A stretch of 64,000 nt of DNA from Balanoglossus misakiensis (GCA_040954595.2 CM082580.2:12724909-12788908), one strand, 5' to 3'. Shown: positions 57 through 60,900, numbered from the stretch's first letter. Notes: generated by a model not told the origin, from the sequence alone. Translations and numbers: made by a program.

Positions 57-2654
57 TCTTCAATGGAACTGTACTTGATAGCTCTCTCCCCTTCAGATGT
101 GGTGAACACTGCCCAGATTTGATTATTGTGAAAACTGAAGTCAATCAGGGTGTCCTGAATGATACAATGCACCAGAAATCAGAGTGAATTCATACATACA
201 CAACTAGCTTCAGTTGAAAATTAATCCAATCCAATGAAGATCAAAGATAATTTTTGAACACTTACATTTTTAGTGAAGACTGACGCTACTGAGAGCAATC
301 CATATTGTCCGTCTTGTAAAACAGGTTGTAAAATACAAAACTGCAAAAAATGAGTGGAGACATGCAGCTTTTTAGTTTTGAACGACTAATGCCAAATATC
401 TGTATCTTGTCGGCAAGGATTACGGTTACTCCCTAGATCAATCACACAGAACATTCATCCCCACATACCTCAGATCTATCCTGGAAACCGAGGTAGACTG
501 CCAATAGCATGGATGATGCATCACTCTCCAAGGATTTCTTTATCATGTGATTTCTGGCAGGTGCATTTTGCAGGATGTCACTGTTAGGAACACAGTCTAA
601 TACATCAAAGACCAGGACACACTCATAGTTCTACAATGAAAGATTGTAATACAGGAAATAAGACACAATTTTTGGTGGACTACATTTGGACTATTTCTGT
701 TCCATGAGAGAAGTTACAGTATTTACTAGCATGGGTTCTGAAAAGTCAGCAGTTTGTGGTTTCACTATCTCCTAATCTTGGTGGTGTCTGTTTTAAAGTG
801 GGTATAACTATATAGGTGATGCAATTCCATTTCATTAAGTTCCTCTGGAGATGCTTACCTTACAAGACCAAACCCTGGCCTTGTGGTCTCTGCATATGGT
901 GAACACCAACAGATCCTGTCCCAGTGGGTGGATGCACAAACTGAGTACTGCGTCTGATGCCTCTTGACCTCCTCTGCAATAAATGAATTGGAAAGTTTAA
1001 GAGCAAATCATCGACTGGTCTCTTTGTACACTTTCATGATTGACTGCTCTATTTACACATTACACCACCCTGAAATTTCCCAAATAATGCACTATTTGAT
1101 ACCAACCTGATCATTGATGGAACAAGACCAGTCCATAATCTCTGCATCATTGTGGCTTGCCTCAGTTCATGTTGTGTTGGAATACCTGGCAATAAGAATT
1201 ATAAACACACCCTTCAAATACAGATACACATAAATGTAAGTCAGTGTCAAAAACATTATAATGACAAGTGCTCTTGACTATGTCTGCATTGGCACCTTAA
1301 TTGTATGTGGTCTGTCAATTTTCAGGATGGCAAACAACACAGTGAGTGTAAGGCAATACACACATATAGAGATTTCATTACCTTGAATTCCAACAGGAGG
1401 CAACTTAACCAACAAAATACTGCCGACATTCGTCGCCAAAGCAAAGACAGCCTCCCCTTCATTTGTTACCCATGATGCACTGGTGTACGGTTCGTGCACT
1501 TGGCCACCTCCCTGGGACAGGAACTGTCTGTTGCTATGGTCCTGTATCATGGCAACTGACACATCAGCAAAAATGGAGGCCATGGTGACAGGCGTTGTCA
1601 AGGGAACCTGAGATGGGAAGGAAAATCTTAGAATAGTAGGAGCAATCTGAAAGCCACTTACATATACACATGCTTTATGAGCTTTATGTTGATTTTGCAT
1701 GTATCAAATTCACAATTTATACAAACATCCATGTAAAGTACAGACACTTACTGATCTCTGTAGTTTGTTTGGATGCGTGAATACCAGTCTGTGTACACTG
1801 GTCAGTGTTGATATCAATATGATTACATTGGTTCGGCTTTCGTGGATGTGAATACCAGGAAGCACCGGGGCATCTGGGAAGTGTAGTCGTACGGTGTTGC
1901 CCGACAGGTTGTGGTCCAGTGACAATTCGACCAGCTCAACCATGTCTTGGTTTGTGTGCCTAAAATAATCACAAAGACGGGTCAGGTATAAACAGTACTT
2001 GGCAGAATTATTGCACCAAAAGTTGAGTCTCAGGGCAGTGGTTAGGGGGGGGGGGGGGGCTTCATCAGGCCCTGCCCTTATCTTAGCAGTGGACACTCCA
2101 AGATCAATATGACTTACAGCATCACAAGTGCATTTCCTTACTTACCAGTAAATGAAACGATTACTGGAAGGGGTATTCATCTTTGAGCTGTCTTTGTAGC
2201 CATAGCCACCAGCGCTTTCTGTCACTTTGCTGTCTTTCAAGACACTCTGGGGTGCTTCTATAATTATAAATAATGGAATGATGAAAATGATACTAGAGAC
2301 TAGAGTACTGGTAGTACACTGTGCTAGTCTGCTACCCTTGTTTTAACTCTAACTATACCCTGGTGGACTGCGCAATACCGATCGTTGCCTGCAATAGTGT
2401 ATTGAACAGGAAGGAACATGACACATGTCGATTGCATACACAACACGATCACTGGATCAGCATGGAACACGCGACGCCAAATGAAGCCGCCTTACTTTCG
2501 CTTACTGCACAATTTACACATTTTAATGACGATCGGTGAGACTGGCAACCTTCTTGTATGTATTTCCGTTACCTGTGTTTACAGTGAGTTCTTTCCATCT
2601 CAGAATTTCAAGATTATTCAGCTGGACCTCAAAGTAGCTGCTGGGTTCCGCCAT
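57..2654 (-). CDS. NUP160: Nuclear pore complex protein Nup160, 5' exons (gene continues beyond the window's left edge)
   Basis: Exons with GT-AG ends and consistent phase: 2573-2654 (ATG, MAEPSSYFEV..), 2146-2257 (..AGGYGYKD..NRFIYW), 1752-1959 (VELVELSLDHNLSGNTVRLHF..SVHRLVFTHP), 1382-1607, 1107-1185, 859-973 (..FTICRDHKARVWS), 469-630, 266-340, 57-154. The NRFIxW, LELxExSLDxNL, SVHRLxxxHP and CxDHKxRxWS motifs are recognisable from the Nup160 N-terminal beta-propeller. Confidence 0.93.
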
Positions 2655-2825
2655 TTTGGATTATCCTCCCGCTACTGGTTGGTCGACTGAGGGCGCTAGT
2701 TGCGATTCGGATCCGAAGTGCAATCCCAATCGAAATCGATCCGTAGCGGTGGGACGTTTTACAACGTGTTGTGCTACAGCAGGGCAAAACAAAAAATAGA
2801 CTACAGCTGACAAGAATATCTTGCG
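2655..2825. promoter_or_regulatory. Compact bidirectional promoter between NUP160 and ZCCHC17
   Basis: Only 171 bp separate the divergent ATGs (2654 on -, 2826 on +). The interval is CpG-rich, and a YY1-type AAAATGGCGG overlaps the NUP160 start codon. Confidence 0.8.
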
Positions 2826-4834
2826 ATGTCAGGCAGAGAGAGACATAAGGAGCAGGGTAAAATGCCTGAGCTGTACAGTATTTTTCTTGGACAGGTAACG
2901 TTCTATATCACTACCCGTCTCTTTCTTGAGGGACTGTGCATGCATGTACCAATGGCTGTGTTTCCATAGCCAAAAATGGCAGTTAGTCCATACTCCCTCG
3001 AGCAAAGGGTATGGATACAGACCCGCAGCAAGTAATAATGATATGAAACAACTATTTTTTTAAATTTCAGATTGCATCAATACAGACCTATGGTGCTTTT
3101 GTGAAAATACCAGACTGTAGAAAGAATGGTAAGGGTACTAAACCTGTCACAGCAGAAGGTTGTAATGTTTCCATGTGCCAAAATGTGCTTTGGAATATTC
3201 AGTATTAATTCAATTCCTTCCAAAAAAAACTTTTGCAGGAATTGAAACATTAAAGACTAAACTTTCTCGTTTCTACCTTATTCACAGGCCTGGTACATAA
3301 AACGCAGATCTCCAACAGTCGAATCGAGGATGTCTCAGAAGTGTTGGCAGTTAATGACAGGGTTTATTGTAAAGTTATCTCGCTTGGGGTAAGACTTGTT
3401 GCATAAAAGTACATGGTAAACATATAGTCAAATGTAGGTTTTGTCTTTCCTCGTCATGAACTACATATCTGTAAACTGACAAAAAGTATACAGTATGCAT
3501 ATTTCAAGTACCTGACAACTTTGTTGATGTTGGAATTTTTACACTGAACATAAAAAAGACAAGTAAAAAAATGGTGCATTTTTTTTTACTTTTTCTTTCA
3601 ACAGGAAGGGGATGAGCAGAAGATATCTTTGTCAATGAAAGTTGTCAATCAAGACACAGGCCGAGATTTAGACCCAAACCAAGTACAGCTCATGTGAGTT
3701 ACTGTGACACAATTTTGGGGATGTAATAATCGCCTCCATTATTTTTTGGTTCCTGCAACTGTGTACATATTCTGGTACTGTGTTATATCTGATCTCTGTG
3801 GTTATCATTTTGTTTTCATCCATGCATATTTGGTTGCTCTCACCATGGTTACTTTGTATCGCTTGTTTCCAGGCAAGATGAGAAGAGAAGAAAACAAGGA
3901 AAAAGTTACATTCCTGACAAGATTGAACTTGGTGCGGTGTTCAATACAACATGCAAGAAGTGTGGATGCAAAGGTAATATCTGATACTATTGAACTTTCT
4001 AATTACTGGCTGTCCCTTTTAGAGGGCATGACCACACAGGTAAATCATTCCGAACAATCATGTTCTCAGTTCCTTTGAACTCACTGCACAGTTCATCAGA
4101 TGTCATACTGCCCTCACAGTCAAGGTCTAAACAGTCTTTCTGTTTCAATCTTGCGTTTCAAGGTCACTTGGCACAAGACTGTTTCAAGGCTCCAGATGGA
4201 AAAAGTTATGAACTTCTCCCCGAAGATGACAGCTTTCTCGCTGAGCTCACAAAGGGCACTGCACCAGAAAAAGAGAAACATAAAAAGAAACACAAGGTAC
4301 AGATATAGGTGATGTTCAGTACCCACATCGAAATTTGGTCATGTCAATACCTTAGATCATCTAGTTACACATAGCACACTGAAATGTGTTTACAATAAAA
4401 AATCAATGCATCAGCCAGTCCCATGTTGATGACAATAATTTTTGACTTGAATGTCTTGCCCAAGATTAATCTTGTCCGAGTTTTTTTAGGAGAAGAAACA
4501 AAAGAAGAGCAAGAAAAAGAAGAAACACAAACACAGACATGAGTCAAGTTCCAGTGAATCAGAAACTTTGTCACCGGAAAAACAGAAGGAACATGAGAAA
4601 AGGGACAAAAGGAAACATAAAAGGACAAGAGATGATCCAGAGTCCCGGAATGAAGAACACAGCAAGGAGAAAAAACAGAGGAGACATTTTGACGAGAGGA
4701 AATCTAGAGACTCAGAAAGAACTGACGAGAGACACAGACAGTATCACCATAGATACGAGGACAGATACAGAACTGATGAGAAATCTCGCAGATCCAGAGA
4801 TGGACATCATTCACACCATGATGATAAACACTGA
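2826..4834 (+). CDS. ZCCHC17: Nucleolar protein of 40 kDa / ZCCHC17 (S1 RNA-binding domain, CCHC zinc knuckle, Lys/Arg/His-rich tail), about 298 aa
   Basis: Seven exons: 2826-2894, 3071-3128 (IASIQTYGAFVKIPDC), 3288-3388 (GLVHKTQIS..), 3605-3693 (KISLSMKVVNQDTGRDLDPN), 3873-3973 (AVFNTTCKKCGCKG), 4163-4296 (HLAQDCF), 4490-4834 (TGA). Total 897 nt, in frame. Confidence 0.95.
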
Positions 4835-5267
4835 CATGAGAAGATTAGAAGATGATGCAAATGTGACAAGTCTTTGTACCATATAGTCACATAGTTTGCA
4901 TGTCATATGCAAATTCAATCGCTTACTTATAAGATTTCTGGTTCAGTTATACTAGTACATTTGTACTGGTATCCCCAGTGGACTAGATGGTTGTAGGGCC
5001 ATGAAGTGACGTGTAAAGCGCCATCAACGACAACATACATTTGCACTTTCATTTTTCCACCCTCACAAACATCAACAAGTGGGAGTAAAGTTAGAGCAGT
5101 TGGTAAAATTGGCAGGTGTGATGGAAGACCTGAAGTGTTCATTCCAGGCAAAACGGTTATAAGAAAATACACAAATAGGTCTGATATTCATAAAACTTTA
5201 TTCAAATAATTTCACTGTAACACAGCATACTGGTTGAATAATAGATTCATATATTAGAATACTGGTA

Positions 5268-8621: not shown

Positions 8622-10582
8622 TTAATACTTCCGCAGAGAGAATAGTGCCTTCAGGAGACGACGTTCATCTGTAAAACGAATTTAAAAAACGTAAGGGTGG
8701 CGGTTCGTGGAATCAACATTTCTATTTGTTTTTCACGTGCAACATAATATCAACATTGCCATTGTGGTGAGGCATTTACAAGTACGCCCCCGTTAAACGC
8801 ACAGCATAAAAATTACCATGAGCGTTTTTAACAGTCAGAACACAACAACTTTCATATCAATCCCGTGTAAAACTAGGGTACAATCATCTCGTAAATTATT
8901 CTGTGTTGTAAGAAATGAGCGTTTCCCCTGACACATAAATGAACATATACTCACATTCAGGTAGTGGCATTTCACTGTCTTCAGATGGTCTCTCTGGTTC
9001 CAGATCAGATGGAAGATCACTACCCTCTGGTGGTGGAGGAGGGAGGTGCCCCTCATCTTCACTCTCACCGCATTCTTTATCGCCTCTGCCGTTGCCTGGT
9101 TTATCATCTTTGTCATCGCCATGTCTGTTGCCTCTGAATCTTCTCTCTTGACGTGGTGGGGGCATGTCACTGTCTTCTGGTCCCAGATCAGATGGAAGAT
9201 CACTACCCTCTGGTGGTGGTGGAGGGAGGTGCCCCTCATCTTCACCCTCACCACAGTCTTTATCGCCTCTGCCGTTGCCTGGTTTATCATCTTTGTCATC
9301 GCCATGTCTGTTGCCTCTGAATCTTCTCTCTTGACGTGGTGGGGGCATGTCACTGTCTTCTGGTCCCAGATCAGATGGAAGATCACTACCCTCTGGTGGT
9401 GGTGGAGGGAGGTGCCCCTCATCTTCACCCTCACCACAGTCTTTATCGCCTCTGCCGTTGCCTGGTTTATCATCTTTGTCATCGCCATGTCTGTTGCCTC
9501 TGAATCTTCTCTCTTGACGTGGTGGGGGCATGTCACTGTCTTCTGGTCCCAGATCAGATGGAAGATCACTACCCTCTGGTGGTGGTGGAGGGAGGTGCCC
9601 CTCATCTTCACCCTCACCACAGTCTTTATCGCCTCTGCCGTTGCCTGGTTTATCATCTTTGTCATCGCCATGTCTGTTGCCTCTGAATCTTCTCTCTTGA
9701 CGTGGTGGGGGCATGTCACTGTCTTCTGGTCCCAGATCAGATGGAAGATCACTACCCTCTGGTGGTGGTGGAGGGAGGTGCCCCTCATCTTCACCCTCAC
9801 CACAGTCTTTATCGCCTCTGCCGTTGCCTGGTTTATCATCTTTGTCATCGCCATGTCTGTTGCCTCTGAATCTTCTCTCTTGACGTGGTGGGGGCATGTC
9901 ACTGTCTTCAGCTGGTCTCTCTGGTTCCAGATCAGATGGAACATCACTACCCTCTGGTGGTGGAGGAGGGAGGCGTCCCTCATCTTCACTCTCACCGCAG
10001 TCTTTATCGCCTCTTCCTTTGCCTTGTTCATCGTCGTCGTGTCCTGGTCTTTTCATTTTCATGATGTCCATAGCCTCACGTAGTACTGTAAGCGAATACA
10101 GACACGCGTGACTTTCACCATAGTAATTGACAGTATACCGGCCAAATATGCAAAATGTGGTTTATCACATGAATATTATATTGAGTCACCTGCATGTGTT
10201 GTGATTTTATTACCCTGGTTTATTTGCTAGTCGAAACCTTGGTGTATACATGTTTTGCATATAATACACTTGAGAGTGACTCACTCAATTTTAAAAACTG
10301 TCTTATGGAGCGCGTTACCTGATCGTCTCTACGGATGGGCGTGTCCGTTGATACCACTCAGACTGGAAAGAAAATTTCACGACTCTGCGTTAATGTCGAA
10401 ATGCATATTGAAGAAGCAAGGAACTCACCATTCTCTTCGTGCAGGAGTTCGTTGATTTCAAGTTGTAGCTCCTTTTGGGGCGGTGGTGCATCTGAATTGG
10501 GTGGTGGTGGGGGTTCCTTTCTGGGAGGAGGCCGAGCCAGTGCTAGGCCCACAACCACGCACAGGAAAAGGATTCTCATCAT
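8622..10582 (-). CDS. Unrecognised secreted acidic/Pro-rich repeat protein A with six RGD motifs (about 443 aa)
   Basis: Exon 10429-10582 encodes signal peptide MMRILFLCVVVGLALA followed by RPPPRKEPPPPP. Exon 8955-10085 is the repeat exon. Exon 8622-8668 encodes (Y)ERRLLKALFSLRKY*. Both introns are phase 1 with GTGAGT donors and TTACAG acceptors; total 1332 nt in frame. Confidence 0.85.
8976..10020 (-). repeat. Coding tandem repeat with a 183-bp (61-aa) unit; five near-identical units plus a diverged partial unit
   Basis: Period of 183 bp is directly visible (ATCGCCTCT at 9079, 9262, 9445, 9628, 9811; sixth copy at 10006). Unit: EDSDMPPPRQERRFRGNRHGDDKDDKPGNGRGDKDCGEGEDEGHLPPPPPEGSDLPSDLGP. 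Confidence 0.97.
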
Positions 10583-11155
10583 ATTGGCGGCGCTCACAAG
10601 CTTCGAGGGACAACAGACGCTGAAATTATGAGACAAGGAATGAAAATGACTGAGGATGATTATAGTTCACCATTTTCAATAGCAGTAAAAGTTTGTTTCA
10701 TTTTTTGTTTCACAACTGATTTATTTTACTACAAGCATTTCTTGCGAACGCATTACAAACAAGTGGCTGTAGAGGTTGCTTGGTACACGATATTTGTGTA
10801 CCTTGAAAGCAAATAGACATTACACCAGAGCTTATTTATTCGATTGGTTCGATTTCCGAATCATACAGACCTATATGAAATATCAGAGAAAAAGCTTGAT
10901 CGAATAGACTTCTTCGTGTTATTGCTATCATTTTAATTCTTAAGTAAGAATTACCCCGCCTTATAGAGATTTATAAAAACTCAGTAAACATGAATTCCTT
11001 CTCAGCTGGACAATAATAGTCGGGTTTTGCGATATACCCGGTATTCTCCCTGTTGAGTATTAGAGAGAACGGGTTTTCAAGTGATAACAGCGCAAAAGGA
11101 AAACGAATGCAGAAGTAACCAAGAACGAAAAGTAAAGAGCGAATGAAATACTTAC

Positions 11156-11220
11156 CAAGGTGTCTCCGTCAGTCGCGGGTAGAGAGTGCTGCTATCTGAG
11201 CAAGCACGGTTCTTATAAAA
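11156..11220 (-). promoter_or_regulatory. TATA box and short non-coding first exon of repeat gene A
   Basis: Minus-strand TATAAG at about 11212-11217, then a strong TG|GTAAGT donor at 11156 about 55 nt downstream; acceptor TTTCAG at 10620 upstream of the ATG. Confidence 0.6.
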
Positions 11221-12682
11221 TCTGCCTGATTACAATCACAATACCAGTTCATCTTTGCACTTTCAATAATGTCACAACTGGTTCTATATCGGTAACTGGT
11301 ACGGCTTTTGTTTGTTCGTCATAGGGAGTTCTCTTCCAGGGCCCTTTTGACATTTCACTGTGTAAATAATCCACTTGACTGAATGTCGTGTTGTTGAGAC
11401 GTAGATTTCGAAGATCGTTATATCATTGGTATTTTGGCAAAGTACAAGCAGTTTGGGTTTCACCAAATCTCTCGTTTCATTTGCAATTTTAACGTGATAT
11501 TTACTCAATTTGCACGATTTTATCACAAATACAAAAGCGCGACGGTGATTGGTTATAATGGCTATAATCATGTACGTCACGTGATCGTGGGGAGCAACTT
11601 TTTGCGCATCTCTTATGCATGCGATCGCCATGGCTGCGCCACTTGTAAATAAATCACATGAGGCTACTCCATGGCATTGCCTTTTCGTCTCAGGAGAAAA
11701 TTTGTCGTCAATTCTTCGTCATGCTTCTTGTTGATTTCGTCAGTGATGCCAATAGTACTGACAACGCGAATAATATGCGTATTCTCCATGTTAACCTTCC
11801 TGAAATAAGATTGGTATCATTTTTGATTTATTACAGCAAATAGTATAAAGCAAATAGTACATTGATCGATAAAATTCTTGCATTCTGCATGACTTAACAC
11901 GTGCGGTAACTTCGATAGGCAGAAAGTTTACCCCAAAAATCATTTCCCGTGTCGTCGATGTGGAGATCATTTCAGTTCCATTTCAGATACGTCTCGACAG
12001 AATCTTATTCAGTACGTTTCGGTGATTCACATGGTTTTTAGCAGTCCCCCATAGGCCACCTTTGATAATTTGTATAGCAATTCAAAGGCTTCGGCTTTAG
12101 ACAGTGTTTAATTTGCTTGAGACCTAGTCGTGTTGCGTAATAACGCAAACACGCTGAATGCTGTTTTCCATTTGAAGTGTGTTGCGAATGTCTCTTTTTG
12201 CATACCCGCCACTGTCACAAGTCCCTTCAGACAATGATGTTTGAAGTTCAATACATTGTGGTTACGCAACAAAGTCATATCCGATCTGTCCCTTTTGTGG
12301 GTGTCATCTTCTATCGAGTGTTCACTGAACGCAGAAAATAATGAGAAGCAATTAGCAAATGGAAACAGGCATGGCACTGAGAAACTTCCCGTGAGCTAAA
12401 CTCTACACGATGACCATCCCACTTCACTGTTATATACGGGGATTTTTCCCTGAAAACATTCATAACGGAGACCAAAATTAAACCATTATTGATTTTTATT
12501 GACAAAATATTTGTCTTTATTTAAGAGAGGTAAAGATAAGGAAAGCCAACAAGACGGATTAATCTGAAATGATAACGGTACACGTATGTCTTCATCGACA
12601 GAAAGTGCAAAAGAAATTATACAGTCTTCACGGCTTCTTCACACGACACCATAGCTGCGTGCCAGCTCTACTCTTTTAGGGC

Positions 12683-13099
12683 CTATCCCGATCCCGAATA
12701 CCATGATCCTCCTTTTGTTGCCAGACGACTTTGCAATCGTTTTTCCATCAGGTACTTCAAAATTGCACGAGCTGAAAGAAGACAAAGGGATACTGTTAGA
12801 TTGCTGTCATTTTCTGATGTCGTCAGCAACCCACCGACCCTAAACTTTTTAGAGATTCGTAAACCCGGAAGTAAAGATAACGATGTCAAATATGCACAAT
12901 TTATGAAAATTGCGCGAGTCACGCGAGAACCATGACGAAATCGCGCGCATCACGCAAGAACAATGACGTCATTCTTCTACACTACGGCGGCCAGAGAAAT
13001 AAAAAAATCGCGACAGCACATATACTTTTTTGGCCTTATTTTTAGAAGGTATAATTACCATCAGCAGGTGGCCTTTCATGTTCGGCAGGTGCTGGTCGC

Positions 13100-13182
<83 letters not shown>

Positions 13183-14670
13183 TGCTGGTGGGGGTTGGGG
13201 ACGCTCATCATCATCATCATCGTTTGCTGGTGGTGGTAATGGTTGCTCACCTGGTGGTGATGGCTGCTCATCATCGTCATCATCGACGAGACGACCGTCC
13301 TTGTACAGAGTAAGAAATGCATTCAAGAGAGCAGGTGGTATATCAGACCCTAGGTCAGATGGAAGTTCAGATGGTAGGTCGGAGGGGAGAAGCTTCAAGA
13401 GTTCGTCAAGATCTGATGGAAGTACGGATGGTAGATCGTCTAAATCGTATCCATCTGCATCTGATGGTAGGTAGGGAAGAATGGAGTGATTATGACTTGC
13501 ATGCTCGTGCAGATGATGTAATATTGCCAAGAGAGCAGCTTGGATATCCGATGGTAAATCAGAGGGAAGATCAGAATGCAGGTCGGAGGGGAGAAGCTTC
13601 AAGAGTTCGTCAACATCTGATGGAAGTTCGAATGGTACATCGCCTTCATCGAGTTTTCGTTTGTCATCAACTTTGTCTTTTGCATGGTCGGGATGACCAG
13701 GGTGATCATGACCATGCACATGCAGATGATGTAGTATAGCCAAGACAGTCTCTGTTAAATCCGATGGTAGATCAGATGGAAGATCAGATGGTAGATCAGA
13801 TGGTAGATCAGATGGAAGATCGGATGGTAGGTCGGAGGGGAGAAGCTTCAAGAGTTCGTCAACATCTGATGGAAGTTCGAATGGTACATCGCCTTCATCG
13901 AGTTTACGTTTGTCATCAACTTTGTCTTTTGCATGGTCGGGATGACCAGGGTGATCATGACCATGCACATGCAGATGATGTAGTATAGCCAAGACAGCAT
14001 CTGTTAAATCCGATGGTAGATCAGATGGAAGATCAGATGGTAGATCAGATGGAAGATCGGATGGTAGGTCGGAGGGGAGAAGCTTCAAGAGTTCGTCAAC
14101 ATCTGATGGAAGTTCGAATGGTACATCGCCTTCATCGAGTTTACGTTTGTCATCAACTTTGTCTTTTGCATGGTCGGGATGACCAGGGTGATCATGACCA
14201 TGCACATGCAGATGATGTAGTATAGCCAAGACAGCATCTGTTAAATCCGATGGTAGATCAGATGGAAGATCGGATGGTAGTAGGTCGGAGGGGAGAAGTT
14301 TCAAGAGTTCATCTATATCTGATGGAAGGTCGGAAGGAATAAAGTCTTCATCGTGTTTGTGTTCGTCACCATCTTCGTCGTTTGCATGGTCGGGATGACC
14401 AGGGTGATCATGACCATGCTCATGCAGATGATGTATTATAGCCAAGACAGCCTCTGTTAAATCCGATGGAAGATCAGATGGAAGATCGGATGGCAGGTCG
14501 GAGGGGAGAAGCTTCAAGAGTTCGTCAACATCTGATGGAAGGTCGGAAGGAATATAGTCTTCATCGTGTTTATGGGGTGGTTCATCCGGTTTATCATCAT
14601 GTCTCGGAGGTCGACCAAATGCGACGCCCACCAAGCAAAGGACCACGAAAGTAACCACAAGTTTTGGCAT
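12683..14670 (-). CDS. Unrecognised secreted repeat protein B with (PSDL)n, His-rich units and a poly-Asp tract (about 566 aa)
   Basis: Exon 13059-14670 encodes signal peptide MPKLVVTFVVLCLVGVAFG followed by RPPRHDD.. (acceptor at 14679). It is spliced in phase 1 to exon 12683-12771 (ARAILKYLMEKRLQSRLATKGGSWYSGSG*). Total 1701 nt in frame. Confidence 0.87.
13102..13182 (-). repeat. Perfect (GAT)27 coding microsatellite encoding poly-Asp
   Basis: 81 nt of uninterrupted ATC on + strand, read as GAT in the frame of the 13042..14670 ORF. Confidence 0.97.
13340..14570 (-). repeat. Nested coding repeat: about six units of roughly 70-85 aa, each with a variable number of 12-bp PSDL sub-repeats
   Basis: GTTTGTCATCAACTTTGTCTTTTGCATGG recurs at 13659, 13908 and 14145 (spacings 249 and 237 bp, differing by one 12-bp PSDL unit). 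Unit: ELPSDVDELLKLL-(PSDL)n-TDAVLAILHHLHVHGHDHPGHPDHA. Confidence 0.95.
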
Positions 14671-15440
14671 GATGACGACTGTAAATGTAAAAAAAAAATA
14701 TTTTTTTTATGGCTACAGCCTCAAACATAAACAAAAACATGCTGAGAAGTACTGGACCTGTCAACTGTCAACAAATTGAAAATAGAGAGAGGAGTTTGGT
14801 GAATAGTTTTCTAATAGCGTCATATTATAATATCAAATGTCATAAATGTCGACTTTCATGCACGCTTTTGCCTCGAGTCGGCCATCTTTGCCCGAAGAAG
14901 GCTCTATAGTATTTCCCAGACCCTGTTTCTGGAGCGCCAACGAAAGAAGCGAAGGGGTCTTGGTAACCGAGACCAAAGAAATGATTGTCATGGGCCTAAA
15001 ACAAGTCGTTGAACACCCAGCTTTCTTCTTCACTTTCAAATTTATAGTGGAACGTACATAATTTGGGGTTTCAGAGTATAATAAGAATGGCAAACATGGC
15101 AACGTTCAGATGGGTTCATTCACTTTCACTTCCCGCGAAAGGTTTGCTGAAAACCTGCATGTCCCTCGGTCGCGTACTACATTAAATATGCGAAGTACAA
15201 ACAGTCAGTGACAGCGTATAGGGTGTGGCCCATACTTAGAATCACCGTGACAGTCTACCACTTGAAGTGACTGTCCTGAGCATACAAGATCATTCCGTTC
15301 CGAGTAAGCACTCTCTGAAAACTAGCCTGGCAGTTGAAGACAAACCCAGAGGTTTGTCCAAGCTATTCTTTTTGTGAAATCTTCCCACAATTTAATCTCC
15401 TAATTGCAGACATGGATTGGGCAGTGCGAGACTGTCTTAC

Positions 15441-15669
15441 CTGCAAGTTCCTGTGCGGCCAAGTGTTTCCAGGTACATCAGGGAGGCGATTTAACTCTGC
15501 TTTGATTAGAATATGAAAAGCATAGAGTGGGAGTTGTTTTACTTTGGTTTTTAAGACAGACTTTGTGTTGGTTCGACTGTCTTATATAACCACGAGCGCT
15601 ACACAAAATCAGTGCTCAGTAATGCTCAGTGACGCAACAACTGTTTCTGCCAGAAGAACACTGACGTCA
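15441..15669 (-). promoter_or_regulatory. Putative promoter of repeat gene B: TATA box, full CRE palindrome and candidate non-coding first exon
   Basis: Minus-strand TATATAA at 15582-15588, TGACGTCA at 15662-15669 and a CAG|GTAAG donor at 15441. The exon boundary is tentative because this exon would contain upstream ATGs. Confidence 0.5.
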
Positions 15670-40700: not shown

Positions 40701-43106
40701 TACGTGCGTACGTGACTAGTCAGCCAGATTATTCTTGCGATATTCGTTTTCTTCTGAGAAATGATACCAAATTCTTAAAAAAGACCGAAATATTTTTCAA
40801 GACTTGTGAATTTGCCGATCCAGTGACAGGTCCTGTTGATTGAATACTAAATCAGCCCTGTCTGCAAACACCGGTGTTTCAGTTCTGTAATTACAGAAAC
40901 GGACATAGCAATTATCCAACTGCCGCATTTGTGTGCCGCAAACTCTGTCACGTGCCAGCAGTGATTACAGTTCTGAAATCTTCCCCGTTTTTACAAGCCC
41001 TGTAGCGGAGATCACTTCGCATAGCCTCTAACAGGAACAGATCGATCCGGGCCTGTCATGAAATTTATCGCAGTCAGCTATCACCGCGAACAACAACTCC
41101 GCATCTAAGTGATCAGCTACGTACTTGTCGTGCTCGTAAAATACTGCAATAAACCCGACAAAGATGCAACACGCAACACACTATACCTGTTTTTTATGAT
41201 ATATCCCTTCTCTCGCTTGCAAAGGCCTTTATCGATGTTTTGACTCATGTGAAACATTATCTCAGTATAATAAAAAAAAAACTAATAATACCAATGCCTT
41301 GTACAATCCGCCTTCCAACCTCATCTTAATCCTCTTACAAGTCAGCGTACTCACTCACTCACTGCAGGGAATAAATATCACCAACGCTTTTGCGGTGATC
41401 AAATTTTAAAAGCCCTTATTTTAAAATCCGAACTGAAAACAGTTTGAATGTCTTTTCTCTCTACACGAAAATGATAATGGCGTTTCGCTGTTTCTTAATC
41501 TCATCATTGTTTCCTACGTAAGTAGTGTAGAATACATCATTTCGACGTCTGGGCTGTGTGAGCCCAGGATCCCATAAGACGAGAAGTGAGATTGCGGAAG
41601 TAGTACTTTGTATAGATTTGGGGGGGGGGGATGAATTCTCCGTGCCGTACGTATCTGGTGAGCATGTATAGAGATGCTCTGTTCCCGGATGTAAAATTTG
41701 AGTCAAACATTTGCGCCTTTGGGACTAGTAAGCGACGTCAAGAAACTTCCGTGAACAGTTAAATATACATAAGTGTTGGTAGTTTAATGAACTATACTGT
41801 CAGATCTTACGTCATCGTTAGCCAGGGGACTGCCTACAGTATACCCGAATGATTGCTGATGGCTTCTGGGAAGTCAAATAAATTCACAAATTACCTAACT
41901 TTAATTGGCCGAGAGAAATTCCACCAGGAACAGTCATTTTAATCATAGACGGACACCTCCTTTGAGATTTGCGTTTGTTTAATAATAAAAAAATATCAGA
42001 GATATTTCACACAGCGTGTCCTTTGTAATATCCTCAGCTGTAAACGATTAATTTAAGAAAAACTCTCGTAACACACTTCATGGGCTTTTCTGTTGTAATA
42101 ATTCATCTTCGCTTGGAATGTTTTAACTTAGACGGCTGATAGCACATGTTAAGTTGACAGAATGTTTTCTATTTTCTCGAGATAAATAAATAATTTATGA
42201 CCAGGTTAAAAATGAATGTCGTTCTTGCGACCATAAAATAATAGGTTTCCTAAGGTTGTTCAAGTACATAAGTTCGGTGTTTCAACGTACGTGCACTACG
42301 CTTTTGTTAGTGGAACATGAATGCCATTCGGTTTTGAGTCACGGAATAGAAAAAATGTTCAAAAATGCTCGGAAATTACACCTATTGTCCCTGAAAGAAA
42401 GCGCGATAAATAGTCTGTGATATAGACGTCACGTCAACATTTTATGTTCAGAAGACGTTATGCGCCACACGTTGTGGGAAAGAAAGAAGAGAAAAAAATT
42501 AGGGAGACTTAGTGATGCCAAATAATAGCGCAAGAGGGAGCGATAGTAAACGGAGATAGCAGTCAACAGTCATTACACGGTATTCACGTGACACCTGTGG
42601 GGCAATTGATGCATTGGCGAATATGTCTGCCTCGGAATACAAAATAATATTAGTAAATAAGGCAGCGCGTAAAGCGACCTCCAATTCCATACTTTACGGC
42701 TTCCTTTACCATAAAACAAAATTGGGGATAATGTAATCCGTGTAAAAACGCGCTCTGAATGGAATTATGAAGCGTTGGATCCCGCCAAAACGTCTAAGCA
42801 CGGTAAGTTGTGTCCTACCTTCGTGTCGTATGGTGTCATTCGCAGTCTGTATCCGCTCAAGACAGCGTCGTTTTCATTGACGTGTGTTAATGCCAAATTA
42901 ATGGCCGGTTTAATGGCCCAGGCCACGTAGTGTTCCTGTGTCGCCGAGGAGAAGGGAAAGAGAGCGGCGAAGTGGATATCGGTCTTGTCGGACGTCATGT
43001 TGTCCGCCTCTGGTCCCCCCTCGACGCCGTGGCGTGGGAAAGTCCAGCACAACATCACAGTGATGGCCACTAATAGCCAGCCGTAAAACACACGAAAAAC
43101 ATCCAT
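21996..43106 (-). CDS. GABBR2: GABA-B receptor subunit 2-like class C GPCR, isoform using the proximal first exon (about 1027 aa)
   Basis: Exons: 42819-43106, 33818-33955 ([26 protein letters not shown]), 33296-33466 ([21 protein letters not shown]), 32921-33022, 31567-31632, 31005-31196 (KYVWILPG), 30256-30483 ([17 protein letters not shown]), 29687-29747, 29142-29222, 28802-28952 (TM1), 28469-28601 ([13 protein letters not shown]), 26683-26790 ([13 protein letters not shown]), 25714-25836, 25014-25124, 24427-24651 ([22 protein letters not shown]), 23992-24156 (coiled coil), 22812-22959, 22560-22686, 21996-22461. Sum 3084 nt, in frame. No RSRR ER-retention motif was seen, favouring the R2 type over R1; exact orthology is not proven. 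Confidence 0.9.
22689..22718 (+). repeat. (GA)n microsatellite forming the polypyrimidine tract of a GABA-B receptor splice acceptor
   Basis: About 15 GA units immediately adjacent to the minus-strand CAG acceptor at 22687. Confidence 0.9.
24327..24418. mobile_element. Minimal MITE-like remnant with terminal inverted repeats
   Basis: Perfect 14-bp inverted repeat AAGGTAGTATTCGC (24329-24342) / GCGAATACTACCTT (24403-24416), overlapping TCAA and TTAA flanks. The same terminus recurs at 19556-19580. Confidence 0.55.
39028..39075. repeat. Short 11-bp tandem repeat (YCTTATAAGTT), about 3.5 copies
   Basis: CCTTATAAGTT TCTTATAAGTT CCTTATAAGTT TCTTAT.. seen directly. Confidence 0.8.
42819..43106 (-). 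CDS. GABBR2: GABA-B receptor proximal first coding exon (signal peptide plus start of Venus flytrap domain)
   Basis: accATGg start; [54 protein letters not shown]; AAG|GTAGG phase-0 donor; 288 nt. Confidence 0.9.
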
Positions 43107-53200: not shown

Positions 53201-55589
53201 GCTTATTACCATCTTACATAAGGCAATAGAAACGGTACAGGTCATCGGTGGAGATGGACTCCGAGACATTATAAGTCAGAACGATATGCAAAGTGGTTGT
53301 ATTTCAGACTAAATGGATACCAATTCATCAATGCAATGCTTTAGTTTCAAACAGTCATTTTCTGATTAACCTTTACAATCGTGCTCTGAATGGAATCTAT
53401 ATATCCTTGGGAGTAGTTTTGGTCATTGATTGAGTGTAATAAGACGCCGCGTAGTTTCATTCTTCTTATATTTGCGACAACCATTGGTGAGATTTTGAAA
53501 CCGGCGAAGAAGAAAGGGCGATACATTTGTCATTTTTGCAAAATGTCGTTTTCGCCACAGCTCTCCACAATAAGCCGCGTTTACTATGATTTCTTATTAA
53601 GCCCTATTATATTTCAAAAAGCGATTTGTATATTCGTGAACCCCATGCCAGTAAACCCACCCTGGGTCATCCGCTGTCAGTTTCAGTCTTCTTTCCAGGG
53701 AGAGCGTTTGACGCAACGCATCCCAGAGTTCACCATTTGACAACATATGCACTCATGATCATCATGGGAGTTTCCAGAAATCGCGCGATTTGCCGAAAGT
53801 CCGCCACCCGGCAGGTTTCCGTCAATATTGATAATACAGCGTGACATAACAGCCGATAATGGACGCAAATGCACTTTTTATACGGCCCACCTTTCTGTCC
53901 ATTACCGGGGCTTTTATCGCCACCCCTGTTGTGCCAAAACCCAGACTCCAACATATGGACATTATCACCTTTTGCAGTAACATGACGCTGTGTAATTCAA
54001 TCGGAAAAATCAAAACATTGCTAACCAGATTGCACTTTGCTGCAACTCTCATAGTGCTATATCCGTGTTTTCTTTACGTGCAAACTGGTGTTTTCTCAAG
54101 TTAAACTTCGCCCTGCATCTGGCTCACAGCTATCGCATAAAAAGGGCGATACTTTTACAGTTGAATTGTTTTTCCAAATAAGGTATCTGGGGTGGGGCGT
54201 ACACGATGCCCATGAGGAGTCTATGTACACACACCAAATGGTGTAAAACTGCGATGAAAATGTGGTTGACGTTTGGTTAAAAATAGACTGCTACGCACAG
54301 ATTAATGACAGGTCATGAATACCATTTAGGGAACAAAGCGTCGCCAGAGCACCCGGTAAAAGGAATAATTAGGGCGTTATAGATATTTTAAATTTCCACA
54401 TCTATATTACATATTACAAAAATCAGAATGGTGTCCGTGATAATACACAGAATGAATTTTGCATTCTCTTGCCAAGAGACAACATTTGTTTGAGATCCAC
54501 ATCATGCGTGGTGGATGACACGGTAGATAGGCAGTGGCGTTGTTTTGTTTTGTTTTAATCAATTAGAGCTGTCAAGTGAACATGTGGGTAGCATTGTAAT
54601 TACCTTGCACGACAAGCGACAGCCTGCAAATAATAATAACATGTAAATGTGTCACACCTACATTCAATGTCAACTCATGGTCGCGGAGTGCTGAACCTAT
54701 CTGAGTGACAGTGAATTTGAAAACAATCCCCTCGAAAAGAAAATGATACGCGCAGGACTGAAACTGATTCAGAGCAAATCAAAAAGATATTTGCGTTTTT
54801 TTTATTCGTCTTCGTTTGCAACGTCGCCAATATGACATGAATGATGAACCCAGTGGTATTGTTGCGAAAATGAACACGCTACACAAAATATGGGCTACGC
54901 GGGAAGCTGTGCGTATCTGCCCGTTAGATGGTGATTGATTGGACTACATTAAAGCAAACTGCATGTAAAAAAACACCACAGCAGTCTTCCTTTTGTGGAC
55001 TTCAGTAGACACGCCAATTTCTGTGCAATAAACTCACGTCAATACACCGTATCGCAACAGCTTTGTTTGCCCAGCAGTTCATGTAAGGACATCATGGGTG
55101 TGAAAAAAAAATTTAAACATTTCATTTACGACTTGCGCCTTCGATTCGATTGTAACAAGTCAGCCGTCATATGTCAGAATGTACACCTTTGAACTGAATT
55201 CATCTGAGAAGTTAGCTTACAGGAGTATTAAGCTTACTTGGGTTCCTTTTATTTTTACTTCATTGAATAAATGAGTAAATCGCTTAAATGGGGGCGCGAG
55301 GGAGACTCCTGCGTTTTTACTCAAATCGTTGCAACTGCCCCATAGGATTATCAATAGCACCACCGCTTATGGGAAGCATTAAAACACGTTTAACCCATGC
55401 CGTGAATCAAGACTTGCGATCACACGAATGCGTAACTCAACTAGGGATCATAGGACACAATAATAATTCAGATCTATCATAGTGATAAGTATAATTGATG
55501 GTATTATGGACCGGCTTCAGGACTCTTTGGCCTGCTGATTTATCCTTTGATCCCGAACAATATAAATCTGATATCCCCCGGTCGCTTAC

Positions 55590-55871
55590 CTTGCTATCAT
55601 AGCGTTCCATGTGCAGCCGGAATCCATCGAGAACGGAGTTGTCCTTATTGATGTGGCGCAAGGCAAGGCCAATCGCCGACTGCACTCCCCACGCCACTTT
55701 GCTCTCTGGACGCTCGGGCGACAGAGGAAACAGGGCGGCGAAATGAAGATCCGTCACCTGCGTGCGATTACTGTCGATGAAAGTCGTGTCCGATCTTCGG
55801 ATGCAGCAGGTAGCCAGTAAGAGCAAGACTGTCACGCATCCCGATCGTTGTTTTCCCTGGTTTGGCACCAT
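55590..55871 (-). CDS. GABBR2: GABA-B receptor distal alternative first coding exon (paralogous to 42819-43106)
   Basis: accATGg start; MVPNQGKQRSGCVTVLLLLATCC..TDLHFAALFP..AIGLALRHIN..VLDGFRL..YDSK; AAG|GTAAGC phase-0 donor; 282 nt. No other receptor exons were found between it and 43106. Confidence 0.85.
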
Positions 55872-57906: not shown

Positions 57907-60900
57907 CTAAGGGGCAGTGTCTCCACAACACTTCCATGTTCCAATCAACTCCCATTCCGTGCTGTTCTCTTGTGAAAAGTGGATTCCCATTCCGGACACT
58001 GTGGAGAGAGTAGAAAGAAATCCCCAAAAATTCAACATGCTCAGCAGCAGATTCTGTTCCAGAAACAGTTGGAATAAATATCATGGTAACTCTGCATTCT
58101 TCATTAAAGCTAATGCTTATAGCTGAAATTTTGCAGTGACAACAGATCAATAAATTCATTTCTATTACCGGGACATGACCAAGTATTCCAAGCAATACAT
58201 ATGATGTGGCTACCTGAATTACTGTCCATAGCTCAGGCTGAAATGCTGTTTTGTGTTCAGCCAGTGACGTGAATGAAATTCAACAAGGAAGACGACCATT
58301 TTTGAAATTTTTAAATGAATGTTCATGGAAATATCTACCCCGGTATATATTTCTAAAATCTCACCTCCCCAGGTGATATTCCACACATCAGACATGAAGA
58401 CATTATCATCTGTTGGCGCCGACTGCAGGTCTTCGTCTTGCAGAGTCACAGAATCCACATAACTTTCCGATTCCCGAGCCTGCGTCCAGAAGTCAGGGTG
58501 TATGGACACCCAGCTTTCACCATAGTCTCTACTCCGCATGACAGCCAGTCCACTGTGAGACAAAGCGTACAGCGTATTGTCGGATACTTCCAAGCCAAGC
58601 AGATTACCGACATTGGAATCCAAAGCTGGTGAGATGGAAATCCAGAAATTCAGGTTATTACATTCTTTATTTATCTTCATATTATATTCTTTGCAAGCAT
58701 GCATCCAAAGTTGTTGGGAATGGTGTGTGTGGCTTGTGCAACTCCAACATCTCAAGTACAAGATACTTGCCATATCAAAAATCATATCTCCTGGTACAAA
58801 AAGTCTAATAAATGCTAGGGGCATAGAAAACTATACGTTTGGATGGCACCATGGTAGAAAAGGGTTAAAGGTACAGTTTCAGTGTGAATAAAAGGTGTAT
58901 ATACTGTACTGACCTCTCCAATGGGTGAACACTTGCGAGTAGTTCCTGTCTGGTGTTTCAGCGATCTCAACACAGCGACACCCACACCAGCAGTCTTCTC
59001 CTATTGGTTCTGGCGTTGATGCAGTAACATTAACTGCAGTGGCATTCACAGTGGTGTTTCCCTGTGCTGCTGTCATGTTGGTGTAATTTGCAGCATATGC
59101 AGTCGGTGCAGCGGTCGCAGTGGTGTTGCTGCATTCACAGTCACACAGACAGTTGGTGCCTTCGGGACAGGGCACGCCGTCGCAGAGGGAGGAACAGTTC
59201 TCGAATTTGGCCACCTGGTCACATTCATGGAGACACTGCGATGTGTTGGTCATTGTAGTGTTGGAACCATACAAGCTACATGATGAGTTGCAATCTTCAC
59301 TGCAGTTACCGTGACTGCTGCAGTTTTCACACTTCGTGGGACACCACGTCACGTTCTCGCAACTCTGGTAGCAAATTTTATGACTGAGTGGTCTTATCTC
59401 CTCACAGACGTCAGTGCAATTACTGGAACAGCCCTTCACACAGTCTGAATGGTTGCCATGGCTGCAATTACTGGAAGTCACGTTTACGTCGCACGTCACA
59501 TTGCCATGGCAACTGGCCACACAGCTTCTGTACCCCGTCTGGCAGTTTTCCAAGCATCTGATGTAGTCTGTGTATTTCTCATTACCGACGCAAAACACCG
59601 ACTGATTCTGACCAATGCTGGCATTGTAAAACTGGGTGAGATTGGAAGTTTGATTTGCAAAATGTGCGACTGTCTCGTTAGAAACACTTCGTCTTCCAAG
59701 ATGGTGGACTACATTTCTGTCCTCATCCACAGTCTCTTGTCTGTAGGTGCCCTCGGTGTTGGCAACTGAATCAAACAGGTATGCAGAATTGGTAACATTG
59801 TCCCTGTAGAGTCGGATGGATTCGGTAATCTCGTCAGGTATGTTGATGCTGTGCAACTTGTAATTAACCAGCAACTCTCTCGTTTCTTTGAAATCCTGGG
59901 ATTGTTCACGCAACGATCTGCCGGGATCTTGCACTCTCTTGGAAATATACAACATTCTTAGATCTGATTTCAGCAAAAGGAGAAGATTTGGATTGGGAAT
60001 TTTCTTTGTAGTGGACTCGTCAAGTAAATTGTACAGAAATGGCCTGGTGTCTTCATTGTCTTCAATTAGCATTTGCTGGTATATCGGTTCGACGTCACGC
60101 TTCCTTCGCCTGTCCCAACATACACTGGCGCAGTTTACATTGGTGCAGTTTGGATCTAGGTGTATCTGCAGACATGTTATCCGGCAACTTTGCATTTGCA
60201 TGGTGCAGGTCGACATAGTGGGGCAGTCCAATGGAGATGGCGTGCATGACACGCATGATGAGTAGTCATCATCGCATTCATCCCAGCACACGTCGAATGC
60301 ATCACACACTACATTAATTGGTATCTGCGTTGAGACGGAAGCTGCAGTTGGCGTCGCTGCAGTTGGGCCGGCCAACAGTCCTGCCAGCACAGTGCAGTTG
60401 TGGAGATCCACCTGGCATTGGTACTGGCAGCTCTGACAGTCTTGGGTGCACTGCGCACACTGCTGAGCGCAGGAGTAACGGCTGATCTCGCATTCAGACA
60501 GACAGTTCGGGATGGTGGGCACACTTGTTGTGAAACATTCCAAGTTACAGCTAACCAGCACTTCTGCACAATTAATGACATCTCTGGTATCATTGCTGTA
60601 TGTCCCTGTGCAGTTACCGACAGAACAGGTGCGGTTGGAGAGTGTTGTACAGTTTCCACCGGCGCACGTTATGTTTCCTCCACTGCTACAATTTCCGGTC
60701 GAACAGCTGTCGTTCCTCGAAGAAATCTTTGTCGAATTTATATGCAGTTTGTTATCGCCCGTGACACATTTCGAATAGACATCATGGCACCCTCTTGAAC
60801 AGTTGGAAAACACAGGCAAGCCTGAATCATCCACCATTTGCAGCTGAGGCAGAGGAGTAGTTGTGTTCAACACTATTGTGGTTTGGTTGACTGTTGTGTT

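What the first reader, a model, noticed from the sequence alone, without database searches (positions are those of the whole stretch)
8622..15669. Tandem pair of unrecognised secreted repeat proteins sharing one gene blueprint: a candidate two-component secretory system
Seen: both genes are on the minus strand with a candidate TATA box and non-coding first exon, a signal peptide followed directly by RPP, a large acidic repeat exon, PSDL/SDLP motifs and PPP runs. Each ends with a phase-1 intron to a short basic amphipathic exon containing a dibasic site (ERRLLKALFSLRKY* versus RAILKYLMEKRLQ..SG*). Their repeats have diverged completely: RGD/Cys in A, His/Asp in B. Inference: these are ancient tandem paralogues, possibly co-secreted, pairing cell adhesion (RGD) with metal or mineral binding (His clusters, poly-Asp). 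That would suit a glue/mucus, biomineral matrix, granin-like or innate immune effector system. Sea urchin Transformer (185/333) proteins combine a leader, RGD and His-rich repeats in one polypeptide; this is an analogy, not demonstrated homology.
Basis: partly seen in the sequence, partly recalled or inferred. Interest (0 to 1): 0.85.

Follow-up and report, generated by a model that had tools for sequence, protein, structure and literature searches.

The report
Paired acidic secreted repeat proteins
Two neighbouring intact genes of an animal that is likely an acorn worm encode related acidic repeat proteins with signal peptides and no detectable relatives elsewhere; they likely serve as ion-binding material in a secreted matrix such as mucus or mineral grains, a familiar kind of protein whose expression and function are untested here.

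Summary
Two intact minus-strand genes are present: B (566 aa; Asp/His/PSDL repeats, 27-Asp run) and A (443 aa; six ~61-aa units, each with RGD and one Cys). Their signal peptides, open frames, in-frame repeat indels and last-intron splice sites check out; splicing and expression are untested (no RNA run listed).

The repeats have therefore not 'diverged completely'.

Other points fail: A has an extra coding intron, the last exons are not significantly alike (p=0.11), their amphipathicity does not exceed shuffles, and RGD arises by chance in 16.5% of shuffled units. Both proteins are polyanions, so a charge-paired glue is unlikely. Most repeats carry basic cleavage-like clusters.

No homologue was found; database hits were PSD-repeat look-alikes. 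Transformer and SCPP/SIBLING membership tests fail.

Best reading: lineage-restricted, largely disordered secreted matrix proteins, likely binding Ca2+ and metals and cross-linking after release (about 45%). The scan's notes hold no earlier record of these genes. A new member of a known kind; interest modest.

The parts
15662..15669 (.). TGACGTCA palindrome (CRE-like; label recalled) about 75 nt upstream of the gene B TATA box
   Evidence: 4 matches in the window against 1.3 expected, 3 of 100 shuffles reach 4; function untested
15580..15588 (-). Gene B candidate TATA box
15441..15558 (-). Gene B candidate non-coding exon 1 (start inferred from the TATA position; donor CAG|GTAAGA at 15440)
   Evidence: inferred
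13059..14678 (-). Gene B exon 2: ATG 14670, 19-aa signal peptide, RPP, six repeat units (14562-13276) each built of a short Leu-rich helix, (PSDL)n, a hydrophobic helix and, in units 1-5, a His cluster; KRK in three units; then a Pro/Asp tail
   Evidence: helices predicted at low confidence; first acceptor ranks 1 of 21
13100..13182 (-). Pure (GAT)n array encoding a 27-Asp run in B
12772..13058 (-). Gene B last intron, phase 1, 287 nt
   Evidence: not RNA-verified
12683..12771 (-). Gene B last coding exon: 29-aa basic tail with KR; stop 12685-12683; AATAAA at 12521 and 12500
11211..11217 (-). Gene A candidate TATA box
11156..11187 (-). Gene A candidate non-coding exon 1 (start inferred; donor TTG|GTAAGT at 11155)
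   Evidence: inferred
10429..10619 (-). Gene A exon 2: ATG 10582, 16-aa signal peptide, RPP, Pro-rich segment, start of a likely helix
   Evidence: acceptor ranks 1 of 9
10086..10428 (-). Gene A extra coding intron, phase 1, 343 nt, with no counterpart in B
   Evidence: its acceptor ranks 2 of 9; the top-ranked one gives an immediate stop (read)
8955..10085 (-). Gene A repeat exon: six units of about 61 aa (183-nt period, 5.6 copies, 96% matches), each with RGD, one Cys, a Pro run and SD[LV]PSDL; a basic cluster RQERRFRGNR precedes units 2-6
8669..8954 (-). Gene A last intron, phase 1, 286 nt
   Evidence: not RNA-verified
8622..8668 (-). Gene A last coding exon: 15-aa basic tail with RR and RK; stop 8624-8622; nearest poly(A)-like hexamer ATTAAA at 8117

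Best explanation
A and B are two intact tandem genes, likely old paralogues, encoding acidic repeat proteins with signal peptides that are predicted to be largely disordered and likely act as ion-binding components of a secreted matrix (epidermal mucus, burrow lining or the organic matrix of calcium carbonate ossicles). SHOWN: open frames, signal peptides, repeats, composition, charge, shared motifs. INFERRED mechanism: (1) both enter the secretory pathway and are stored in acidic granules, where B's 45 His are protonated (computed net charge -73 at pH 5.5 against -114 at pH 8.1); (2) proprotein convertases may cut at the basic clusters present in most repeats (5 in A, 3 in B), giving units of about 6.6 and 8.7 kDa; (3) on release into seawater, B's His clusters deprotonate and would bind Zn/Cu, while its Asp-rich stretches would bind Ca2+; (4) A's single Cys per unit would form inter-chain disulfides, and its RGD may tether the material to integrins; (5) the short basic tails may act in granule sorting or in binding to polyanions. 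Each protein could work alone; a 1:1 A-B complex is not required.
For: Real coding genes: a 554-codon and a 421-codon stop-free frame; all repeat periods and unit-length differences are multiples of 3; pN<pS in 15 of 15 (non-independent) B unit pairs and 13 DNA spellings among 34 PSD[LVI] copies; in A's repeat core 6 of 9 variable columns are third codon positions (p=0.04) and the Cys is kept across TGC/TGT. Paralogy: 20 of 26 nt identical at the signal-cleavage site, reached by 1 of 1000 codon shuffles (window length chosen after seeing it); N-terminal protein match p=0.0004, or 0.034 with signal architecture preserved; SDLPSDL shared (9 of 20000); 18-nt word reached by 0.4% of recodings with background codon use. 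Material-like properties: pI 4.5 and 4.2, D+E 27% in both; AlphaFold pLDDT 41, pTM 0.18, isolated helices only. Analogy: mineral-matrix proteins are described as disordered, secreted, repetitive, duplicated and under concerted evolution (PMC4336488 passages); His acts as a granule-to-seawater pH switch in marine materials (PMC9999432 passages); acorn worms have CaCO3 ossicles in the epidermis (PMC9490348).
Against: No expression, localisation, proteomic or orthologue data. The organism comes only from other AI notes. The 18-nt match is reached by 4-6% of recodings under the genes' own codon use, and PSD-type runs arise convergently in unrelated proteins. Last exons, last introns, promoters and 3' regions show no significant similarity. 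Third-position enrichment in B is not significant (p=0.15). No SxE sites and no C-type lectin domain, unlike SCPPs and sea-urchin spicule matrix proteins. Low pLDDT without a deep alignment does not prove disorder. Per-repeat basic sites fit a peptide-precursor reading equally well.
Confidence: 0.45

Rival explanations
1. Granin-like granule proteins or polyprotein precursors: acidic proteins that condense in dense-core granules of neuroendocrine or gland cells and are cut at the per-repeat basic sites into multi-copy bioactive peptides plus the basic C-terminal peptides.
For: Acidic, signal peptide, dibasic sites: RR in 5 A units, KRK in 3 B units, and in both tails. CRE-like palindrome plus TATA upstream of B. 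Short helices that could serve as sorting signals (PMC3602189 abstract). Granins are described as acidic, dibasic-site-rich granule proteins (PMC5642266 passages).
Against: No Gly-basic amidation signal at any internal site, so the repeats do not look like amidated neuropeptides. No Pfam family match. A has no full TGACGTCA, and TGACG half-sites run at 2.1 per kb in the window. The released units would be large and acidic.
Confidence: 0.2
2. Innate immune effectors that work like sea-urchin Transformer (185/333) proteins, with the RGD part (A) and the His-rich part (B) in separate genes, binding microbes and sequestering metals.
For: Leader, RGD, His patches, acidic patches, tandem repeats, predicted disorder and tight clustering all occur in Trf (PMC5491942, PMC3342357 passages). 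By eye and after the fact, short motifs PRQ, RRF-x-G and RGD-plus-acidic occur in the same order in A and in Trf peptides listed.
Against: Trf genes have two exons (leader, mature), are under 2 kb, have no Cys, are Gly-rich and were found only in euechinoids. A has 4 exons and 6 mature Cys; B has 3 exons, 4% Gly and no RGD. Only two genes lie in the window. No protein scored against A's repeat exon, though that search needs shared 5-mers.
Confidence: 0.13
3. Gamete-surface or egg-coat proteins (bindin-like or jelly-coat-like), fast-evolving and homogenised by concerted evolution.
For: No detectable orthologue although other notes report Ptychodera flava gene models in the same databases; A units 2-5 are identical over 52 codons. 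B's hydrophobic helix ending in His residues recalls the His-containing fusogenic segment of sea-urchin bindin (recalled; the literature search returned nothing relevant).
Against: No Pfam match to any family. No gonad expression data. Rapid turnover is equally typical of matrix and mucus proteins.
Confidence: 0.1
4. A and B are unrelated or functionally independent neighbours whose shared features are generic to secreted low-complexity proteins, or one of them is not expressed as modelled.
For: Different exon number; last exons p=0.11; introns, promoters and 3' regions no more alike than shuffles; PSD-type repeats are convergent elsewhere; A has no AATAAA within 1.1 kb of its stop.
Against: Two separate shared segments (signal-cleavage region, SDLPSDL) in adjacent same-strand genes; only 89 of 1.8 billion representatives matched B at all; last introns of 286 and 287 nt; intact frames and good splice sites in both.
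Confidence: 0.12

Closest known systems
Secreted repetitive low-complexity biomineral matrix proteins of invertebrates (e.g. sea-urchin spicule matrix proteins; PMC4336488, passages)
   Same: Secreted, acidic, repetitive, predicted disordered, duplicated, concerted evolution of repeats, not traceable by homology search.
   Different: No C-type lectin domain and no sequence match; presence in mineral not shown.
SIBLING/SCPP cluster of vertebrates (PMC2803795 and PMC9122587, passages)
   Same: Tandem genes recognised by exon plan rather than sequence; acidic, secreted; RGD; large repeat exon; Pro at position 2 of the mature chain.
   Different: SCPP introns are mostly phase 0 and the proteins carry SxE sites and derive from Sparc-L; here all three coding introns are phase 1 and there are no SxE sites.
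Sea-urchin Transformer (Sp185/333) proteins (PMC5491942, PMC3342357, passages)
   Same: Leader, RGD, His-rich and acidic patches, tandem repeats, disorder, clustering.
   Different: Trf: two exons, no Cys, Gly-rich N-terminus, RGD and His in one chain, about 50 genes, euechinoids only. Here: 3-4 exons, Cys in A, RGD and His-rich repeats in separate genes, two genes in the window.
Granins (secretogranin II etc.; features from PMC5642266, passages)
   Same: Acidic, signal peptide, many dibasic sites, short helices.
   Different: No family match; long perfect tandem repeats, His clusters and repeated Cys; granule location untested.
His-rich marine material proteins and sandcastle-worm cement (PMC9999432, passages)
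   Same: His as a pH and metal switch between granule and seawater (B).
   Different: B is Asp/Leu/Pro-rich rather than Gly-rich; the cement pairs polycations with polyanions, whereas A and B are both polyanions.

Membership tests
Transformer (Sp185/333) | Two exons: the first encodes the leader, the second the whole mature protein; gene under 2 kb | tested here: not met
   Feature. A has 4 exons over about 2.6 kb, B 3 exons over about 2.9 kb; in both, the signal and mature sequence share an exon.
Transformer (Sp185/333) | Gly-rich N-terminus, central RGD and His-rich C-terminus in one chain, no Cys | tested here: not met
   A has RGD and 6 mature Cys but 3% His; B has 8% His, no RGD, 4% Gly.
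Transformer (Sp185/333) | Sequence similarity to Trf elements | tested here: inconclusive
   No hit for A or B, but no Trf sequence was aligned directly and the word-seeded search could miss it.
Transformer (Sp185/333) | Induction by immune challenge, phagocyte expression | not testable with these tools
   No RNA run listed.
SCPP/SIBLING | Mostly phase-0 coding introns | tested here: not met
   Feature; all three coding introns are phase 1.
SCPP/SIBLING | SxE (Fam20C) sites | tested here: not met
   0 SxE in A and in B.
SCPP/SIBLING | Acidic secreted protein with RGD in a tandem cluster | tested here: met
   A: pI 4.5, six RGD; B acidic but without RGD.
SCPP/SIBLING | Origin from and synteny with Sparc-L | tested here: not met
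   Neighbours are a GABA-B receptor subunit 2-like gene and a DUF5588/TPR gene.
Granins | Acidic secreted protein with multiple dibasic sites | tested here: met
   9 dibasic matches in A, 7 in B.
Granins | Sequence or profile match to a granin family | tested here: not met
   No Pfam-A family at its cut-off for any exon or unit.
Granins | Storage in dense-core granules, heat stability, Ca2+/low-pH aggregation | not testable with these tools
   Needs experiments.
Echinoderm spicule matrix proteins | C-type lectin domain plus repeats | tested here: not met
   Feature; no lectin domain.
Echinoderm spicule matrix proteins | Occluded in mineral | not testable with these tools
   Needs ossicle proteomics.
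Sea-cucumber SWYG peptide precursors | SWYG peptide bounded by a monobasic site in a precursor of about 150-160 aa | tested here: not met
   Feature; B's tail has SWYS, no basic residue directly before it, in a 566-aa protein.

The most novel reading that the evidence does not exclude
A and B are a hemichordate counterpart of the sea-urchin Transformer system split into two co-secreted chains, one RGD/Cys cross-linking and one His/Asp metal-sequestering, each cut into multi-copy effector units. This would push a supposedly euechinoid-only immune design back towards the ambulacrarian ancestor.
Probability: 0.06. Interest if true: 0.75.

Novelty: new member of a known kind. Interest (0 to 1): 0.3.

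Why it matters
Acorn-worm ossicles are widespread and their function is unknown (PMC9490348, parts read). In my paper searches (listings only) no title described acorn-worm mucus or ossicle matrix proteins. If B or A proves to be in ossicles or mucus, it gives a molecular handle on hemichordate secretions and on whether echinoderm and hemichordate mineral matrices arose separately. The pair also shows how secreted repeat paralogues keep only a signal-cleavage region and a 7-residue motif while rebuilding everything else. Without expression data it remains an orphan pair of a familiar kind.

Tried and rejected
No whole genome is held, so paralogues outside the window could not be sought; within the window, tblastn of the termini and repeats found no third copy. 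No RNA holder was listed; this is no evidence either way.

Homology searches: B against 5.8 billion proteins gave 26 hits among 7994 candidates; B against 1.8 billion representatives gave 89; the B-unit alignment in metagenomes gave 50 loci from 598 stretches. After masking 176 of 465 PSDL-type residues, 0 of the 103 fetched proteins and 0 of the 50 loci still matched. I read 17 of the 103 sequences and one locus; none resembled B outside such runs. A's repeat exon: none of 7995 candidates, lengths 206-658 only. A's first coding exon: none of 51 candidates (weak test). A in metagenomes: none of 147 stretches. The B query left out the poly-Asp region and the last exon, and A was not run against the representatives library. 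ESM Atlas: no usable hit for either. Exact look-up: 0 of 10. PDB sequences: 0 for the B-unit profile. Pfam: nothing at cut-off; DUF1525 (23.1 bits against 24.1) and PT repeat (E 0.055) are low-complexity matches.

Structure models were too poor for a fold search (pLDDT 41 and 56), so none was run. The self-assembly prediction for B units did not run because the queue was full.

Rejected leads: SWYG neuropeptide resemblance; a shared helix-plus-KR exon-start module (p=0.62 and 0.72); homology of last introns, promoters or 3' regions. The helix-2 pattern matched nothing and was redone. Cameron and Bishop 2012 (PMC3385480) is not held. The bindin search and one SIBLING search returned nothing useful. 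No supplements were read.


Full report
1. What is there. The region 8622-15669 holds two minus-strand genes between a GABA-B receptor subunit 2-like gene upstream (an exon at 24418-24696 matches GABA-B2 at E 8e-31) and a DUF5588/TPR gene downstream. The DNA is from an animal. Other notes of this scan call the genome likely an acorn worm's; I did not test that, and no genome is held.

Gene B: TATA at about 15586, candidate non-coding exon to a donor at 15440, acceptor 14679, ATG 14670, one coding exon to 13059, a 287-nt phase-1 intron, and a last exon with stop at 12685 and AATAAA at 12521 and 12500. The modelled protein has 566 aa: 21% Asp, 17% Leu, 13% Pro, 8% His. After a 19-residue signal come six units, each with a Leu-rich stretch, a variable number of PSDL tetrapeptides and a hydrophobic stretch that runs into a His cluster in units 1-5, then a Pro/Asp tail with 27 consecutive Asp.

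Gene A: TATA at 11217, donor 11155, acceptor 10620, ATG 10582, coding exon to 10429, a 343-nt phase-1 intron, a repeat exon 10085-8955, a 286-nt phase-1 intron and a 15-residue last exon ending at 8622. The modelled protein has 443 aa, with six units of about 61 aa (183-nt period, 96% matches), each with RGD, one Cys, a Pro run and SD[LV]PSDL.

2. Are they real genes? The main exons are stop-free over 554 and 421 codons. All repeat periods (12, 183, 216, 237 nt) and unit-length differences keep the frame. Among B units pN is below pS in 15 of 15 pairs, which are not independent, and 34 PSD[LVI] copies use 13 DNA spellings. A cruder count of variable columns by codon position is not significant for B (p=0.15) and marginal for A (6 of 9 third positions, p=0.04). 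A units 2-5 are identical over the 52 codons compared, which indicates recent homogenisation. Four of the five acceptors rank first among candidate sites by my own pyrimidine score; A's internal acceptor ranks second of 9, and the first-ranked site there leads to an immediate stop (read). No RNA run was listed, so splicing and expression remain predictions.

3. Are they paralogues? For: 20 of 26 nt are identical across the signal-cleavage site (1 of 1000 codon shuffles; window chosen after inspection). The N-terminal protein match has p=0.0004, or 0.034 when the signal architecture is preserved. A's unit shares SDLPSDL with B (9 of 20000 shuffles), with an exact 18-nt DNA word (E 0.001) that synonymous recoding reproduces in 0.4% of trials with background codon use and 4-6% with the genes' own. 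One A unit against non-redundant B gives p=0.02. Both promoters have TATAAGA (7 copies on this strand of the window), and the last introns are 286 and 287 nt. Against: A has an extra intron; the last exons align no better than chance (p=0.11); last introns, promoters and 3' regions are no more alike than shuffles; PSD-type runs occur in unrelated proteins. Old tandem duplication is the likeliest reading, at moderate strength.

4. RGD arises in 16.5% of shuffled A units, so it is a hint, although RGD and Cys persist in the diverged first and last units and the Cys survives a synonymous change. The tails are basic (pI 10.4, 10.6), but their hydrophobic moments are matched by 29% and 63% of shuffles. 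Both mature proteins are polyanions at every pH from 5 to 8.1 (A -23 to -54; B -54 to -114), unlike the polycation/polyanion pair of sandcastle-worm cement (PMC9999432 passages). AlphaFold gives low-confidence models with isolated helices (pLDDT 41, pTM 0.18; pLDDT 56 for one unit with a six-row alignment), compatible with disorder but not proof of it.

5. Relatives. None was found. B gave 26 hits among 7994 candidates, 89 among 1.8 billion representatives and 50 metagenome loci; after masking the PSDL-type runs 0 of 103 proteins and 0 of 50 loci matched. A gave none, with limits: lengths 206-658 for the repeat exon, a 51-residue query for the N-terminus, and no search of the representatives library. 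Pfam, PDB sequences, the ESM Atlas and exact look-up were blank. These blanks do not show absence from other acorn worms.

6. How it most likely works. Shown: two intact frames with signal peptides, strongly acidic repeats, His clusters and poly-Asp in B, RGD and Cys in A, basic clusters in most repeats. Inferred: storage in acidic granules; a His-driven charge change of about 40 units in B on release into seawater (mechanism as described for His-rich marine materials); Ca2+ binding by Asp and transition-metal binding by His; disulfide cross-linking and possible integrin tethering by A; possible cutting into repeat units; a sorting or binding role for the tails (amphipathic sorting helices are known from proCART, PMC3602189 abstract, but amphipathicity here is not above chance). 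The product would be part of mucus, burrow lining or ossicle matrix. Acorn worms have epidermal CaCO3 ossicles of unknown function (PMC9490348, parts 3-4 of 5), and mineral-matrix proteins are typically disordered, secreted, repetitive, duplicated and homogenised (PMC4336488 passages). I put this at 0.45; granin-like or polyprotein precursor 0.20; Transformer-like immune effector 0.13; unrelated or mis-modelled 0.12; gamete protein 0.10.

7. Comparison with known families. Transformer: the genes have two exons, no Cys, a Gly-rich start and RGD plus His in one chain, and were found only in euechinoids (PMC5491942, PMC3342357 passages); A and B fail these features. By eye, a few short motifs occur in the same order in A and in Trf peptides; this is after the fact and a direct comparison remains open. 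SCPP/SIBLING: similar logic (tandem, acidic, RGD, exon-plan kinship; PMC2803795, PMC9122587 passages), but phase-0 introns, SxE sites and Sparc-L synteny are not met. Granins: acidity and dibasic sites are met, a family match is not (features from PMC5642266 passages, a weak source). Spicule matrix proteins: no C-type lectin. SWYG precursors: rejected (PMC6586643, PMC3432112 passages). Ten paper searches (listings and abstract starts only) showed no title describing these proteins; subscription papers such as Cameron and Bishop 2012 were not available, and no supplements were read.

8. Verdict. This is an orphan, probably paralogous pair of secreted acidic repeat proteins, a new member of a known kind. 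Interest 0.3. The boldest reading not excluded, a split Transformer-like system in hemichordates, has about 6% probability and would deserve 0.75.

Noticed in passing
window 55440-55868 and 42768-43106 (minus): Two similar exons, each with a signal-like start and the beginning of an ANF_receptor domain (weak Pfam hits; alignable, both ending in a same-phase donor), lie 12.7 kb apart upstream of the GABA-B2-like gene: likely alternative first exons giving two N-termini, or a tandem duplicate.
   Followed up: partly
window 58879-63591 (minus): A single 1570-codon open frame with 13.4% Cys, 89 N-glycosylation sequons and an RRKR site, with no Pfam match at E<=1 and no exact database copy: an unexplained giant Cys-rich exon.
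   Followed up: partly
window 13100-13182: The poly-Asp of gene B is a 100% pure trinucleotide array of 27.7 copies, so it is likely recent and length-polymorphic.
   Followed up: no
window 8669-8954 and 12772-13058: The last introns of A and B are 286 and 287 nt yet share no detectable sequence; introns of the neighbouring DUF5588 gene look to be about 60-270 nt (read by eye).
   Followed up: partly
window 2650-4900: A plus-strand gene with a Lys-rich end and a zinc-knuckle-like exon lies head-to-head with a minus-strand gene starting near 2652; they resemble ZCCHC17 and NUP160 (names recalled, not tested).
   Followed up: no
window 12907-12971: B's last intron holds a 31-nt two-copy repeat and a second TGACGTCA palindrome.
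   Followed up: no
window 13276-14562: B has 22 P-S-x-x-P motifs and 54 Ser/Thr, a pattern that may be O-glycosylated (recalled preference), which would make B mucin-like.
   Followed up: no
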